From Escherichia coli (GTDB lineage Bacteria > Pseudomonadota > Gammaproteobacteria > Enterobacterales > Enterobacteriaceae), in the NCBI RefSeq assembly GCF_016903815.1, contig NZ_CP069973.1: 64,000 nt of DNA. One strand, given 5' to 3'. This document shows positions 48,148 to 51,832 of this stretch, one piece after another. A model generated the notes under the pieces. That model saw only the letters and a program-made list of their open reading frames with translations, made no database searches and was not told the DNA's origin. Position numbers and translations under genes: made by a program. Numbering within the stretch: the first letter of the stretch is position 1; each line of letters opens with the position of its first letter.

Positions 48148-49431
48148 GCAGGGCAAGATTACGAAAGCCCGCTCCCCGCAAGGACTGACGCGAGATAGTT
48201 TCTGTCCATGGCTGCTTTTCGCATCTTACGTCTTAACCCTGCCTTGAATACCTTATCATTCGTTAAAATATTAATAGCGATGTGCCGTATCCCTGAAAAT
48301 AATTCTGCGGCGTTTCCTCTTCTTATTTTGCAGTCGTCTTCATTCATTACCACGTCCAGACGCCAGTGCAGCTTATTCTCCACGCGCCAGTGGTTTCGGA
48401 TTGCTGTGGCGAACTTCTCTGCGGTTAAATCAGCAGAACTGATATAATATCTGACCGTCATTTCTGGCTCTTTCTTTTGTTCTGCTATTATTGACCGAAA
48501 AGAGACTGCCACGCATAATTTCTTCAGTCCTTTCCATTCAAACGTGAAATCAATAAGTTCATCAGGGACATCGCAAACAATATGAAGACGGATTTCTTCT
48601 CTGCCGTGACTCTTTTCACTAATGGCGTAACTGTCATGCTCTGGATTATTTAATTCTTTCAGCGGAAATTTTTCCTCGAAGGCTTTATTTAGCCGCCCCT
48701 GGTTTCCTTTTACAGCGAATAAATAATCACCGCCCTGTTTTTGTATCTTCTCTGCAATATCTTTCTGGCAACCCATCGCATCAGTTGTGATGATTTTTCC
48801 TTTAATATCCAGCATGTTAAGAAGTTCAGGGATAGCTGTAATTTCATTGGATTTCTCATCCGTCCTGATCTGTCCGATGACCAGACTGTGCATTGTTGAG
48901 AACGCACTAATGACATGAATCGCTCCCTTGCGGCGACTCTTGTCATAAGAATGCCGGAGTGTTTTTCCATCAATTGCGATGACGTCTTTATCATCTGAAG
49001 TATGGCAATCTCGCATCCAGTTAATAAAACACTCGTGAAATTTTGAAGGACTGATACAGGATATAACTCTGGCGATGGTATCGTGAACAGGAATACCATT
49101 ATCAAAATCACCATATTGCTTCAAAAAATCGAGATGTGTTTCCCCAAAATCCTCTATATCTTCCCAGCCTTCTGCACCCGAAATAACGGCACAAATAGTC
49201 AACAGCAGAATATCCGATAATTTATGTTCCACTTTCCAGGCTTGTCTGTAATCGGGGATAATAGAAATATGTTCCATCAATTTTTTAAGTTCCATTTTGT
49301 TCTCCTTAATTATGTAAGGAGTATTTGATCATGTATAAGCAATAAAAAACAGCTTTAGGTAATGAGGAATATCTCCATTTTTAAACATAAAATGCGAATT
49401 ATTTAGTACAAAAAGTGTACTTTGGATGATC
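48148..49431 (-). mobile_element. ISAs1-family insertion sequence (H-repeat element), complete, ~1.28 kb, with imperfect ~20-bp terminal inverted repeats
   Basis: 378-aa H-repeat-type transposase flanked by 'gcagggcaagattacgaaag' (48148-48167) and the reverse complement of 'ctttggatgatctttccctgc' (49411-49431); boundaries are approximate. Confidence 0.7.
48159..49295 (-). CDS. ISAs1-family (H-repeat-associated) transposase
   Basis: 378-aa ORF '[51 protein letters not shown]...', typical of H-rpt transposases of Rhs elements. Confidence 0.85.
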
Positions 49432-49660
49432 TTTCCCTGCCCTGAGTGGTGACATTCACCCGCCCGCGTTCTTCATAGCCGGTGCGCTGTGATGTGTCGT
49501 CCGGGCTGAAGATACCCGTCAGCCTGCCGGATTTGTCATACGCATACTGCGTTTTGCCTTCCGGCGTGATGACTTCTGCCAGGCGGCCTGTGGCGTCCCG
49601 GTTGTAGAGAATAGTTTCCTCCCGGCCGTTAATCTTCGCGGTACACAGGCAGCAAGTATT
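49432..49660 (-). pseudogene. Rhs core fragment (~70 codons), truncated copy of part of the prePAAR-Rhs gene
   Basis: DNA nearly identical to 55857-56075 (encoding '...ILYxRDAxGRLAEVITPEGKTQYAYDKSGRLTGIFSPD...'); abuts the ISAs1 end. Confidence 0.8.
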
Positions 49661-49675
49661 ACACCGGATTAGGTA

Positions 49676-50233
49676 TCACTCTGTTATTTTTATCATATCC
49701 TTAAATGCTTTTTTCGGTACCGGGCCTCTAGATATAGCAAGACCATAGTTCGCAAAATCAGAAACAAGGCTAAATTTTTTTTTCTCATACTGGTAGTTCA
49801 TACACATCAAAGCTAATCTTACGCTGCTTACACCACTTAGCTCATCGCAAATATTTCTCTCTTCAATATCTACAACACGAATAGCATCGAATATTTTATT
49901 CAATGAATCAAAGTATTCAAAAAAACAAAACGCTTTGTTTTTTATCTCATTGATAACAAACTCACTACCTTCAAAAGAATGCAGCAAAGATATACTTAGT
50001 CCATCACACACACGGTTACGGATGTAACAATCTATTTCTTTTTTCGGTGGTTCATTGCAAAAATTTTCGAACACAGGATGAACACCTGTGTTTATAAAAA
50101 AAATATCACCTGTACTCTTTTTTTGAAAATTTATACAATTTACAAACTTATCATGAACTTTATAAAAATCATTGTTACCATTTTTTATAAACCCATTTTT
50201 GTTTAAAAAGTCACCAATCGGTTTGAGTTTCAC
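49676..50233 (-). CDS. Putative immunity protein cognate to the orphan Rhs C-terminal toxin
   Basis: 185-aa low-GC ORF immediately downstream of the orphan toxin module; function inferred from position. Confidence 0.5.
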   Translation of the reverse strand: MKLKPIGDFLNKNGFIKNGNNDFYKVHDKFVNCINFQKKSTGDIFFINTGVHPVFENFCNEPPKKEIDCYIRNRVCDGLSISLLHSFEGSEFVINEIKNKAFCFFEYFDSLNKIFDAIRVVDIEERNICDELSGVSSVRLALMCMNYQYEKKKFSLVSDFANYGLAISRGPVPKKAFKDMIKITE

Positions 50234-50244
50234 ACTATCACTCC

Positions 50245-50943
50245 TTATCGATAAATAATCGGTATACCATGTTTATTTAAAAGATCTTCAAGTGGTTTAG
50301 TTGGCCCAATCTTCCCTGTAGTTGAACTTCTTGTAAACACCCATTCAATTTGATCAAGTTGCTCACTTCTCAAAATCTTAATATCCCGCGCTACCTCTTG
50401 CCGTACTCGGGTTGTTAACCCTGTTCGACCGACTTTAGATTCTATACCCGTTACTCCATCAACAACGTCAATACGCTTTAATCCTCCTGTCACTCTATAA
50501 TTTTGTTCAATTAGAGTGGTTCCCCTCTCTTTGGCAATCATATCCCTTACTTTATCGCCAATCGTTTTATTTCGCTGGACCAGAGGCTTACCAAAATTAG
50601 ATGCAGCCCTTGCTGCCCGACTGGCTTCAAGGTTAGTCAGCGCCCACTGTCTGAGTATAGGACACGTTGCTAATCCCAGAGGATCAACATACCCACTAGG
50701 ATTAGGCACATACCGGTAAGTCTGCTCACCCCCCAGCAACCCCAGGGGATCACTCACCAGGTACATCCCGGTTTCCGGCTCGTAATACCGGAACCGGTTA
50801 TAGCACAGTCCGGATTCCGCATCCTGCCACTGTCCTGCATACAGCAGGCCGGGGTCGGCTTCCGCGTCCCGCTCCCCGCGCGGGTCCGGGTAGTCTGTGT
50901 CTGCGGGCAGGCTGCTCCGCCCACCACTCCACGTTACCTTCAA
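50245..50943 (-). CDS. Orphan Rhs C-terminal toxin module (core-end homology region + putative PD-(D/E)xK nuclease-like toxin domain)
   Basis: 232-aa ORF; its N-terminal ~120 aa closely match the end of the prePAAR-Rhs core including 'DPLGLATCPI..ANLEASRAARAASNFGK', then diverge; 'RIDVVDG...IESKVG' suggests a D..E.K nuclease motif. Confidence 0.6.
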   Translation of the reverse strand: MKVTWSGGRSSLPADTDYPDPRGERDAEADPGLLYAGQWQDAESGLCYNRFRYYEPETGMYLVSDPLGLLGGEQTYRYVPNPSGYVDPLGLATCPILRQWALTNLEASRAARAASNFGKPLVQRNKTIGDKVRDMIAKERGTTLIEQNYRVTGGLKRIDVVDGVTGIESKVGRTGLTTRVRQEVARDIKILRSEQLDQIEWVFTRSSTTGKIGPTKPLEDLLNKHGIPIIYR

Positions 50944-50972
50944 TGAAGGCGGTTTTTTACTTTTGTTTCAAA

Positions 50973-51341
50973 TTATCCTTTATTATCAATCCACTCCGAG
51001 ACATCTTGTATAACCAAATGTACCCATTCCCAAAAATCAGGGTAAAATTGTATAATATCAAACCCGTTAGGAGTCCACCCATTAATTAAATAAACACCCT
51101 CACAGACTCCAGATTCATTAATTTTGAAACAAGCCAATTCATCATTATCTTGACGTTTAGCAAAAGCGAATAATTGTTCACCTATGACATTTGGCCATTT
51201 TTTATTCGCAAAAAAACACCTGTTCTCATCTAGATAAAACCATGGTTCTAATTGGCTAAATTCACTGGTGCCAATAATTTTTTTTTCATTCAACCAACCA
51301 TATCCTATAGGGAAATGGATTTCATTTTTATTCATACCCAC
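50973..51341 (-). CDS. Hypothetical protein, possible orphan immunity protein
   Basis: 122-aa low-GC ORF in the toxin/immunity array; no recognised motif. Confidence 0.35.
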   Translation of the reverse strand: MGMNKNEIHFPIGYGWLNEKKIIGTSEFSQLEPWFYLDENRCFFANKKWPNVIGEQLFAFAKRQDNDELACFKINESGVCEGVYLINGWTPNGFDIIQFYPDFWEWVHLVIQDVSEWIDNKG

Positions 51342-51390
51342 TATCTTTTACCTCATTTGGGTTTAGGTAATCTTGGTGGAACTGTATTTA

Positions 51391-51473
51391 GGTAATAAGG
51401 AATATCTCAATTATTGAACATTTAGTGCGAATTATTTAGTACAAAAAAGCAGCGTTACGTGATCTTTCCCTGC
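51391..51473 (-). repeat. Solo ISAs1 terminal remnant (~80 bp, ~80% identical to the right end of the complete copy at 49355-49431)
   Basis: Shared 'taggtaat(g/a)aggaatatctc...gcgaattatttagtacaaaaa...gatctttccctgc' with no transposase gene attached. Confidence 0.55.
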
Positions 51474-51832
51474 GCTGGCGGCAGAAGATAGCTGGCTATC
51501 GTTATTCCCCCCAGGATCATTCTCTGCCACGGCGGGAACTCCGGCTGGATATCCAGATAGGTGACCTGCTCACCCCCAATAAAGACGTCCGGCGAACCTC
51601 CCACGATCGCCGCACTGCACTCCAGTTTGTCCCCCTTGCGCGCGGCGGGCTGATTGTTGATAAAAACGTTGCTGCTGCCCTGGGCTATCCTCGGCGGTTT
51701 AGTCTCCTTGTCGCAGAGCGCTGTGTCTTCACCGGCTTCCGGGAAATCCACGTCTTTTTTGATTTCGCTACGATCTTTCCCTGTCAGATCATGTAATACC
51801 AGCCACGAACTGAGGATATATGTAGAGGTCAT
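51455..51832 (-). pseudogene. Fragment of the PAAR-domain region of a prePAAR-Rhs gene, fused to the solo ISAs1 end
   Basis: 125-aa ORF; residues 'EIKKDVDFPEAGEDTALCDKExKPPRIAQGSSNVFINNQPAARKGDKLECSAAIV.GSPDVFIGGEQVTYLDIQPEFPPWQRMILGGITIASYLLPPA' duplicate 57934-58240 of the intact gene. Confidence 0.75.

What the first reader, a model, noticed from the sequence alone, without database searches (positions are those of the whole stretch)
48148..51832. ISAs1 (H-repeat) copy and a solo ISAs1 end, each fused to a truncated rhs-derived fragment
The complete ISAs1 ends directly against a ~220-bp copy of Rhs core DNA (49432-49650, near-identical to 55857-56075). An ~80-bp remnant of the same IS end (51391-51473) is fused to a duplicated piece of the PAAR-domain region (51474-51800, matching 57934-58240). 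This points to repeated ISAs1 insertion into, and recombination between, rhs copies as the process that built the orphan array.
Basis: seen in the sequence. Interest (0 to 1): 0.45.

Follow-up and report, generated by a model that had tools for sequence, protein, structure and literature searches.

The report
ISEc1 scars in an Rhs array
This is the far end of a well-known E. coli Rhs toxin island, where one intact ISEc1 (H-repeat) insertion sequence and three leftover IS ends sit against cut-off stubs of rhs genes; it is ordinary, already-described biology.

Summary
The window is an E. coli chromosome. The region is the nfrB-proximal end of the vgrG–DcrB/Eag–PAAR-rhs island between nfrB and cusS, which Jackson 2009 called 'Rhs locus 4, clade IV'.

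- **Intact IS.** A 1291-bp ISEc1 (H-rpt, ISAs1 family) lies at 48149-49439. Its transposase-proximal end (IRL) abuts a 211-bp rhs core stub (49440-49650), 94% identical to 55858-56069.
- **Solo IS end.** An 86-bp IRL remnant (51387-51472) abuts a 300-bp PAAR-region stub (51473-51772), 95% identical to 57925-58224. It comes from a different ISEc1 variant.
A perfect 12-bp IRL terminus (51772-51783) marks the stub's other edge. A 50-bp relic of the opposite IS end (IRR) lies at 52394-52443.
An ordinary orphan rhs-CT lies at 50245-50943.

Related strains show the PAAR stub is the 5' end of a second, N-terminally truncated rhs copy that is nearly complete in strain SC492. The ISEc1 junction on the nfrB side is conserved in 2288 of 5426 genomes. 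The rhs-side junction differs between lineages.

My reading is that C-terminal displacement built the array, and IS insertions and IS-associated deletions mostly cut it down. Interest is low.

The parts
48103..62109 (-). Whole island, absent from K-12. It carries vgrG, a DcrB/Eag-type chaperone, PAAR-rhs, the orphan array and ISEc1, inserted between nfrB and cusS.
   Evidence: K-12 homology stops at 48102 and resumes at 62110, and nfrB and cusS are adjacent in MG1655. Same gene order in strain 7/2. This is 'locus 4' of PMC2935791 and the b0570-b0569 Rhs site of E. coli W.
48149..49439 (-). Complete ISEc1 (H-rpt, ISAs1 family), 1291 bp. IRR terminus at 48149-48161 and IRL terminus at 49427-49439.
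   Evidence: IS-only matches in other loci delimit it exactly. It is 96-98% identical to copies annotated ISEc1. The termini CAGGGCAAGATTA and CAGGGAAAGATCA match at 11 of 13 positions. No 4-12 bp target duplication.
48159..49295 (-). ISEc1 transposase ORF, 378 aa, apparently intact.
   Evidence: NF033564, 416.8 bits. PF13808 and PF01609. Same 1137-bp length as the annotated copies in other strains.
49440..49650 (-). rhs core stub, corresponding to about residues 959-1028 of the main Rhs, cut at its 3' side by the ISEc1 IRL terminus.
   Evidence: 94.3% identical to 55858-56069. tblastn to main Rhs residues 959-1036. Junction sequence. This junction type is found in 154 genomes.
49676..50233 (-). 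DUF4304 gene, the presumed immunity gene of the orphan toxin CT2.
   Evidence: PF14137, E = 5.8e-10. It lies directly downstream of the orphan rhs-CT.
50245..50943 (-). Ordinary orphan rhs-CT. The partial core (50587-50914) carries the DPLGL motif and is followed by toxin tip CT2.
   Evidence: 94.5% identical to 54448-54775. TIGR03696, 67 bits. Translation shows SDPLGL...VDPLGL. The tip is 52% identical in protein to the main CT.
50973..51341 (-). Orphan immunity-type gene of 122 aa whose cognate toxin has been deleted. A source database names it SMI1/KNR4 family.
   Evidence: Cluster P0001 carries the name 'SMI1/KNR4 family'. Its 73%-identical homologue P0002 lies 18 bp downstream of a DPLGL-containing toxin ORF in L009.
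51342..51386 (-). Last ~12 codons and stop of the deleted rhs-CT toxin gene, joined directly to the IS remnant.
   Evidence: Nucleotide homology between window 51389..51004 and L009 520-905 (78%). It covers the toxin's ...PPRLPKPK* end.
51387..51472 (-). Solo IRL end, the terminal 86 bp of a second ISEc1 variant.
   Evidence: 81% identical to the resident IS. 93-94% identical to the L004 and L011 IRL ends. nhmmer model positions 1206-1291, E = 3e-19.
51473..51772 (-). PAAR-region stub. It is the first 300 bp (residues 240-339) of a second, N-terminally truncated rhs copy, cut by the IS at 51472/51473.
   Evidence: 95% identical to 57925-58224. tblastn 97% to residues 240-339. PF05488 PAAR. Collinear with the long second rhs copy in L012 and L013.
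51772..51783 (-). Perfect 12-bp IRL terminus (GATCTTTCCCTG), placed exactly where homology to the main rhs stops.
   Evidence: 12/12 match. Homology breakpoint at 51772. The same junction is conserved in L011, L012 and L013.
51784..52393 (-). 610-bp module (S2) bracketed by IS termini. It contains a 71-aa ORF (52047..51832), which is 104-116 aa in other strains.
   Evidence: The match in strain N3 ends exactly at 52394. ORFs.
52394..52443 (-). Diverged relic of an ISAs1-family IRR end, in the same orientation as the resident IS.
   Evidence: nhmmer model positions 1-50, E = 1.4e-4. In L012 it starts CAGGGCAAGATCA.
52659..53102 (-). 147-aa ORF, probably an orphan immunity gene. This is inferred from position only.
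   Evidence: Position in the array. Only a weak Imm1 hit, E = 0.13.
53582..54115 (-). 177-aa ORF overlapping the stop of the main rhs, presumed to be the immunity gene for the main toxin tip.
   Evidence: ORF layout. No family match.
54112..58941 (-). Main PAAR-rhs gene of 1609 codons, inactivated by an in-frame TAG at 56722-56724.
   Evidence: prePAAR, PAAR, DUF6531 and RHS repeats. Single internal stop at codon 740. The same codon is CAG in L013 and CTG in L002. PGAP flags an 'internal stop'.
58961..61351 (-). DcrB/Eag-type chaperone gene (59422..58961) and vgrG (61351..59450).
   Evidence: PF08786 DcrB, E = 1.4e-27. Annotation of the identical strain 7/2.

Best explanation
The region is the distal, decayed part of a classical E. 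coli Rhs element, the clade IV vgrG–Eag–PAAR-rhs island at nfrB/cusS.

**How the array formed.** Successive toxin tips and immunity genes accumulated downstream of the main rhs gene by the usual homologous 'C-terminal displacement'. At one point this left behind an almost complete second rhs copy.

**What the IS did.** ISEc1 (H-rpt) copies, always in the same orientation as rhs, inserted repeatedly into this downstream rhs-derived DNA. Deletions that start at or inside those IS copies then removed what lay beyond them. What remains is a short 5' rhs stub butted against an IS left end:
- a core stub against the intact ISEc1 at 49439/49440;
- a PAAR stub against an 86-bp IS remnant at 51472/51473.

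Two further IS termini, at 51772-51783 and 52394-52443, mark older joints of the same kind.

**Shown versus inferred.**
- Shown: the anatomy, the junctions, and the orthology of the PAAR stub to an in-situ second rhs copy.
- Inferred: that the deletions arose mainly by recombination between two directly repeated IS copies after a local insertion, or by transposase-promoted adjacent deletion.

**Likely activity.** The resident IS looks intact and may still be active. The main rhs gene carries a nonsense codon, so the locus probably no longer delivers a toxin.
For: **Identity of the pieces**
- IS identity and exact ends.
- rhs duplicates and their positions in the main gene.

**Origin of the PAAR stub**
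- The stub, the S2 module and the 147-aa ORF are collinear (96.8%) with strain SC492. There the second rhs copy starts at the same 12-bp-IRL boundary and runs 3.7 kb to a complete toxin tip.
- Strain 2014C-4423 is collinear with window 51473-59700 (97.2%), and its second copy runs 653 bp.
- Strain N3 has a complete ISAs1 element 153 bp into the same copy, plus the distal ISEc1. These are two direct IS copies about 4.8 kb apart, the kind of arrangement from which recombination between IS copies would leave a stub against a single IS.

**The solo end marks a deletion**
- Its inner edge joins the last ~12 codons of a toxin gene. That gene is intact upstream of the homologous immunity gene in L009.

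**Population pattern**
- The nfrB-side IS junction is conserved in 2288 of 5426 genomes.
- The rhs-side junction is polymorphic: 154, 379 and 831 genomes carry three different types.
- IS copies are mosaic near IRL. The L003 copy has an L002-type body with an L004-type end. This indicates recombination between IS copies.
- The window strain lacks 70 bp that lie immediately outside IRR in three other strains.

**The standard process is also at work**
- The ordinary orphan with a partial core and DPLGL motif shows it.
- That process was described for this locus (PMC2935791).

**The layout is the classical one**
- K-12 RhsB, RhsC and RhsE all end in ISEc1 copies in the same orientation. RhsC has three tandem, truncated copies.
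Against: - No target-site duplication flanks any IS here. No simple insertion was caught 'in the act', so the order of events is reconstructed rather than observed.
- Three deletions start inside an IS, at 12, 50 and 86 bp from a terminus. Transposase action does not predict that, so a second, non-IS deletion process is needed for them.
- No progenitor strain was found for the core stub at 49440-49650. That is, no strain has the DUF4304 gene followed by a longer rhs copy. Its origin as the 5' end of a displaced copy is argued only by analogy with the PAAR stub.
- ISEc1 transposition has reportedly never been observed (PMC3032704).
- In one strain (L013) the IRL flank is not rhs DNA.
Confidence: 0.75

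Rival explanations
1. ISAs1 insertion, and recombination through IS copies or between rhs copies, is the constructive process that assembled the orphan array. On this view IS copies act as portable homology, or as ends for illegitimate joining, and bring new rhs or immunity modules into the locus.
For: - IS termini lie exactly at module boundaries. A 12-bp IRL terminus marks the 5' edge of the second rhs copy. An IRR relic marks the edge of the 610-bp S2 module, and the N3 homology breaks at that exact base.
- The upstream array and the second rhs copy are therefore joined through an IS end.
- IS copies are mosaic.
Against: - The only intact orphan has the standard partial core of homologous C-terminal displacement and no IS at its boundary.
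- Simple arrays at the same locus (L002-L004) have modules without internal IS scars.
- Where a comparison is available, the IS-linked joints in the window are losses relative to SC492, 2014C-4423 and L009.
Confidence: 0.2
2. A single resident ISEc1 at the nfrB border generated all the different rhs-side junctions by transposase-promoted adjacent deletions. No second IS copy and no recombination between IS copies would be needed.
For: - One flank is constant in 2288 genomes while the other flank varies.
- A precise 70-bp loss lies directly outside IRR in the window strain.
- The IS is retained intact.
Against: - It does not explain the solo 86-bp end, the 12-bp terminus or the IRR relic, which come from other IS copies or variants.
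- Strain N3 shows that second, full copies do insert within the array.
- Mosaic IS sequences point to exchange between IS copies.
- No adjacent-deletion activity is documented for this IS family (own knowledge).
Confidence: 0.2
3. The rhs stubs are passengers that the IS mobilised from elsewhere by one-ended or read-through transposition, so they are not remnants of local rhs copies.
For: Stubs are short (180-332 bp) and always lie on the IRL side.
Against: - The PAAR stub is orthologous and collinear with a long in-situ rhs copy in SC492 and 2014C-4423, and shares its upstream flank.
- The stubs are 92-97% identical to the locus's own clade IV rhs.
- IS copies at other loci, such as K-12 yhhI and ydcC, do not carry these stubs.
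Confidence: 0.03
4. The duplicated segments are assembly-collapse or misassembly artefacts.
For: Repeats in rhs regions are hard to assemble.
Against: - The identical 4.3-kb arrangement occurs in 110 independently finished genomes.
- The copies differ by 5-6%, so they are not collapsed identical repeats.
Confidence: 0.01

Closest known systems
H-rpt (H-repeat) / ISEc1 components of the E. coli K-12 Rhs elements RhsB, RhsC and RhsE
   Same: - The same IS: 95-96% nucleotide identity over 1291 bp to the full-length copies, yhhI (RhsB), ydcC (RhsE) and the complete RhsC copy at ybfL; ybfD is a truncated copy.
- The same position, at the distal border of the Rhs element.
- The same orientation as the rhs gene.
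- Truncated or tandem copies are also present.

The H-rpt as a component of Rhs elements goes back to Hill and co-workers in the early 1990s (own knowledge). It is mentioned in PMC3032704.
   Different: - Here the host is a clade IV, T6SS-linked PAAR-rhs island at nfrB/cusS, which K-12 lacks.
- Here the IS left ends abut internal rhs stubs. BLAST of each K-12 rhs gene against its own downstream region found no rhs homology next to the IRL ends of the K-12 copies.
Orphan rhs-CT/immunity arrays formed by C-terminal displacement (Jackson et al. 2009, PMC2935791; Poole et al. 2011, PMC3150448)
   Same: - The same locus (position 4, nfrB-cusS, clade IV) was their worked example in E. coli.
- The orphan at 50245-50943 has the canonical form: a partial core with the DPLGL motif, then a new tip, then an immunity gene.
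   Different: - A term search of that paper found no mention of H-rpt, transposase or insertion sequence, and only one general mention of IS elements.
- Here several modules are truncated at IS termini, and immunity-type genes survive without their toxins.
IS-disrupted orphan toxin arrays in CDI systems, for example E. coli EC869 cdiA-CT orphans
   Same: Orphan toxin fragments interrupted by IS elements or transposons, with some fragments lacking cognate partners (PMC3150448).
   Different: A different toxin delivery family (CdiA, not Rhs) and different mobile elements.

Membership tests
ISAs1-family insertion sequence (ISEc1 / H-rpt) | DDE transposase matching the ISAs1-family model | tested here: met
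   NF033564 at 416.8 bits against a cutoff of 70. PF13808 and PF01609.
ISAs1-family insertion sequence (ISEc1 / H-rpt) | Compact element of about 1.2-1.5 kb with a single transposase ORF | tested here: met
   1291 bp, delimited by IS-only matches at other loci. One 378-aa ORF.
ISAs1-family insertion sequence (ISEc1 / H-rpt) | Terminal inverted repeats beginning CAGGG | tested here: met
   CAGGGCAAGATTA at 48149 and CAGGGAAAGATCA (reverse complement) at 49439, matching at 11 of 13 positions. That ISAs1 ends begin CAGGG is from my own knowledge of ISfinder.
ISAs1-family insertion sequence (ISEc1 / H-rpt) | Direct target-site duplication flanking the element | tested here: not met
   No 4-12 bp direct repeat at the two flanks, and none in L002-L004. 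This fits later deletion or recombination on at least one side. It does not contradict the identity of the element, which rests on 96-98% nucleotide identity to copies annotated ISEc1.
ISAs1-family insertion sequence (ISEc1 / H-rpt) | At least 95% nucleotide identity to the named IS (isoform criterion) | tested here: met
   95.4-97.8% identity over the full length to copies annotated ISEc1, including those at K-12 yhhI, ydcC and ybfL.
Rhs element with orphan array (clade IV, T6SS-associated PAAR-Rhs) | Full-length rhs with prePAAR/PAAR, RHS/YD repeats and a core ending in the PxxxxDPxGL motif, followed by a variable CT | tested here: met
   Pfam and NCBIfam hits. The translation shows DPLGL. 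The gene carries a nonsense codon, so it is a pseudogene member.
Rhs element with orphan array (clade IV, T6SS-associated PAAR-Rhs) | Linkage to vgrG and an Eag/DcrB-type chaperone gene | tested here: met
   PF08786 DcrB. vgrG annotated in the identical strain 7/2.
Rhs element with orphan array (clade IV, T6SS-associated PAAR-Rhs) | Downstream orphan modules: a partial core homologous to the main core, then a distinct CT, then an immunity gene, all in the same orientation | tested here: met
   50587-50914 is 94.5% identical to 54448-54775. TIGR03696. A DUF4304 gene follows.
Rhs element with orphan array (clade IV, T6SS-associated PAAR-Rhs) | Toxin and immunity activity, and T6SS-dependent delivery | not testable with these tools
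   This needs competition assays. The TAG at 56722-56724 argues against current delivery.

The most novel reading that the evidence does not exclude
ISEc1 (H-rpt) may not be a passive passenger of Rhs elements. It could preferentially target rhs-derived DNA or other ISEc1 ends within Rhs arrays, and so act as a recurrent 'pruner'. By removing long direct rhs repeats it would stabilise newly acquired toxin tips. Its leader remnants (12-115 bp at IRL) might be retained because they promote transcription of orphan immunity genes downstream.

- For: six of seven distinct IRL junction types sampled lie in rhs DNA, and IS copies abut IS ends in N3 and in K-12 RhsC.
- Against: the sample is small and not phylogenetically controlled. 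The one promoter-like match across the joint at 51410..51381 is within background.
Probability: 0.1. Interest if true: 0.45.

Novelty: already known. Interest (0 to 1): 0.2.

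Why it matters
The direct importance is small. The result documents, in one E. coli lineage (110 finished genomes, including an O102:H6 strain), how a T6SS Rhs toxin island decays:
- the main toxin gene is knocked out by a nonsense codon;
- displaced rhs copies are cut down by IS insertion and deletion;
- immunity-type genes outlive their toxins.

The one modestly useful by-product is population-level. ISEc1 sits at a fixed site on the nfrB side of this island in about 42% of complete E. coli genomes, while its rhs-side junction differs between lineages. That makes the locus a convenient natural record for testing two open questions: whether H-repeats are still active, and whether they have a target preference. 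ISEc1 transposition has reportedly never been observed (PMC3032704).

Tried and rejected
- **Target-site duplications.** I looked for 4-12 bp direct repeats around the complete IS and found none.
- **An IRR-like terminus at the 5' edge of the core stub (49647-49668).** The similarity to CAGGGCAAGATTACG needs gaps and was not recovered by nhmmer. I rejected it as not significant.
- **A target consensus.** The IRL flanks CCCTGAGTGG, CGCTGGCGGC, TATACATCCG, GCTCCACGTC, AGTTTGTCCC and AGCTTTGCCC (L013, non-rhs) show none.
- **The IS remnant as a promoter for the orphan immunity gene.** There is one 9/12 sigma-70-like match across the joint. The region has 7 such sites against 8.3 ± 3.0 in shuffles, so this is no evidence.
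- **Family assignments for the small ORFs (71, 122, 147 and 177 aa).** Pfam gave nothing significant.
- **Counting genomes with the 70-bp deletion next to IRR.** The count of 785 is confounded, because two-piece matches across the 70-bp segment are merged. I did not use it.
- **Original H-rpt literature.** The 1993 paper from Hill's laboratory is not held. Searches for ISEc1 with Rhs returned only ISEc12 or unrelated papers.

Full report
**Where this is.** The window is E. coli chromosome. The stretch 47900-52200 is about 100% identical to 110 finished genomes, for example strain 7/2 and an O102:H6 strain. In the annotated identical record the gene order is nfrA, nfrB (pseudogene), ISAs1 transposase, rhs-related fragments, the main rhs (internal stop), a DcrB-related gene, vgrG and cusS. 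In K-12, nfrB and cusS are adjacent. K-12 homology ends at window 48102 and resumes at 62110. The feature therefore lies inside a ~14-kb island at 48103-62109. This is 'Rhs locus 4' (nfrB/cusS), the only clade IV rhs site of E. coli in Jackson et al. 2009 (PMC2935791). It is also the b0570-b0569 Rhs site of E. coli W (PMC3032704).

**Checking the observation.**
  - Core stub: 49439-49650 against 55858-56069, 94.3%.
  - PAAR stub: 51473-51772 against 57925-58224, 95.0%.
  - IS end: 49354-49444 against 51387-51477, 81%.
- The IS is exactly 48149-49439 (1291 bp). Copies at other loci (K-12 yhhI, ydcC) match only that span at 96-98% identity.
- The transposase is a full-length 378-aa ISAs1-family protein.
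- The ends are CAGGGCAAGATTA and CAGGGAAAGATCA.
- There is no target duplication.
'Near-identical' overstates 94-95%.
- The solo end is not from the same copy. It is 81% identical to the resident IS but 93-94% identical to the left ends of ISEc1 variants in strains 20.1 and N3.

**Anatomy in the direction of transcription (minus strand).**
1. vgrG (61351..59450).
2. DcrB/Eag-type chaperone gene (59422..58961).
3. Main PAAR-rhs (58941..54112), 1609 codons with one in-frame TAG at 56722-56724.
4. A 177-aa ORF that overlaps the rhs stop.
5. A 147-aa ORF.
6. A 50-bp relic of an IS right end (52443..52394; nhmmer E = 1.4e-4).
7. A 610-bp module with a 71-aa ORF.
8. A perfect 12-bp IS left terminus (51783..51772).
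9. The PAAR stub, residues 240-339.
10. The 86-bp IS left end (51472..51387).
11. The last ~12 codons of a toxin gene (51386..51342).
12. A 122-aa gene that a source database names SMI1/KNR4 family.
13. An ordinary orphan with partial core, DPLGL motif and tip CT2 (50943..50245).
14. A DUF4304 gene.
15. The core stub, about residues 959-1028.
16. The complete ISEc1.
17. 46 bp of island DNA, then nfrB.

**What the stubs are.** Comparison with other strains settles the origin of the PAAR stub.
- **SC492.** The sequence collinear with window 51473-53183 (96.8%) continues as a second rhs copy. That copy starts at the same 12-bp-IS boundary, lacks only the first ~239 codons, and runs 3.7 kb to a complete metallopeptidase tip with its immunity gene.
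- **2014C-4423.** This strain shares the window's main rhs, tip and downstream genes (97.2% over 8.2 kb). Its second copy runs 653 bp before an internal deletion.
- **N3.** A complete ISAs1 element is inserted 153 bp into the same copy, at a different site from the window's +300 bp.

The PAAR stub is therefore the 5' end of a displaced rhs copy that an IS insertion cut in this lineage.

The IS then lost all but 86 bp. Its inner edge is joined to the 3' end of a toxin gene. A metagenomic contig (L009) has an intact DPLGL...PPRLPKPK* toxin ORF directly upstream of a 73%-identical homologue of the 122-aa gene. Nucleotide homology to the window starts at the IS remnant's edge. That joint is a deletion which removed a toxin and spared its immunity gene.

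I found no progenitor for the core stub at 49440-49650. By analogy I read it as the 5' end of another displaced partial rhs copy, cut by the resident ISEc1. This part is inference.

**Population pattern.**
- The nfrB-side junction (46 + 70 bp of island DNA against IRR) is present in 2288 of 5426 complete genomes.
- The window lineage lacks precisely the 70 bp next to IRR.
- On the other side, the same IS end abuts different rhs positions in different lineages.

| Junction position (main-rhs equivalent) | Where seen | Genomes |
|---|---|---|
| 55858 | window type | 154 |
| 57036 | L003/L004 type | 379 |
| 57338 | L002/L012 type | 831 |
| 57185 | N3, distal IS end | not counted |
| non-rhs DNA | 2014C-4423 | not counted |

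- IS copies are mosaic near the left end.
- In N3 a complete IS abuts a 115-bp left-end remnant of another copy.

A fixed IS with one constant and one variable flank fits two routes. One is local re-insertion followed by recombination between direct IS copies, for which N3 is a plausible precursor state. The other is transposase-promoted adjacent deletion. The data do not separate these two. Deletions that begin 12, 50 or 86 bp inside an IS require ordinary illegitimate deletion as well.

**Judging the interpretation.**
- 'Repeated ISAs1 insertion into rhs copies' is supported.
- 'The process that built the orphan array' is not supported as stated. The intact orphan has the standard homologous-displacement structure with no IS at its edge. 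Where a comparison is available, the IS-linked joints in the window are losses.
- One joint, the 12-bp terminus at the start of the second rhs copy, does show that an IS end took part in joining two arrays. It is shared by all three comparator strains examined for it. The constructive reading therefore keeps some probability.

**Comparison with what is known.**
- K-12 RhsB, RhsC and RhsE each end in ISEc1 copies in the same orientation as rhs. RhsC carries three tandem, truncated copies.
- H-repeats as components of Rhs elements, and orphan tips at this very locus, are long described (PMC3032704, PMC2935791; earlier work from Hill's laboratory is cited from my own knowledge).
- Nothing here departs from those kinds.

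**Verdict.** The biology is already known. Interest is 0.2.

Noticed in passing
window 56722-56724: The main PAAR-rhs gene has a single in-frame TAG at codon 740 of 1609. The same codon is CAG in the closest comparator (2014C-4423) and CTG in HUSEC2011. The T6SS effector of this island is therefore a pseudogene in this lineage. PGAP also flags an 'internal stop'.
   Followed up: yes
window 45724-47961 (internal stop codon at about 46834-46836): nfrB, the phage N4 adsorption / c-di-GMP-activated glycosyltransferase gene, is split into two ORFs of 368 and 375 aa. It is annotated as a pseudogene with an internal stop in the identical strain 7/2, but it is intact in HUSEC2011, SC423 and 20.1.
   Followed up: partly
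window 48148/48149: Relative to HUSEC2011, SC423 and 20.1, exactly 70 bp of island DNA directly outside the ISEc1 right end are missing. This is a terminus-precise adjacent deletion. I could not count how many genomes share it, because one search was confounded.
   Followed up: partly
window 50296-50940 versus 54127-54822: The orphan toxin tip CT2 is 52% identical in protein to the tip attached to the main rhs over ~230 residues. The two tips are therefore diverged members of one toxin family rather than unrelated toxins.
   Followed up: no
window 51832-52047; L011 7049-7722: The 71-aa ORF in the IS-bracketed 610-bp module is 104-116 aa in other strains, so it is probably truncated here. In strain N3 it overlaps an upstream nucleotidyltransferase-domain ORF (PF01909). 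This hints at a small two-gene module that is not an Rhs immunity gene.
   Followed up: partly
L011 (strain N3) 1-811: The distal complete ISEc1 directly abuts a 115-bp left-end remnant of another ISEc1 copy, which in turn abuts an rhs stub. K-12 RhsC likewise has three head-to-tail, truncated copies. IS copies repeatedly land at or next to other IS ends in Rhs arrays.
   Followed up: partly
window 51381-51410 (minus strand): A sigma-70-like hexamer pair (TTGAGA, 18 nt, TACAGT) spans the joint between the IS remnant and the toxin tail, upstream of the 122-aa gene. The number of such sites in the region is not above the shuffled expectation.
   Followed up: partly
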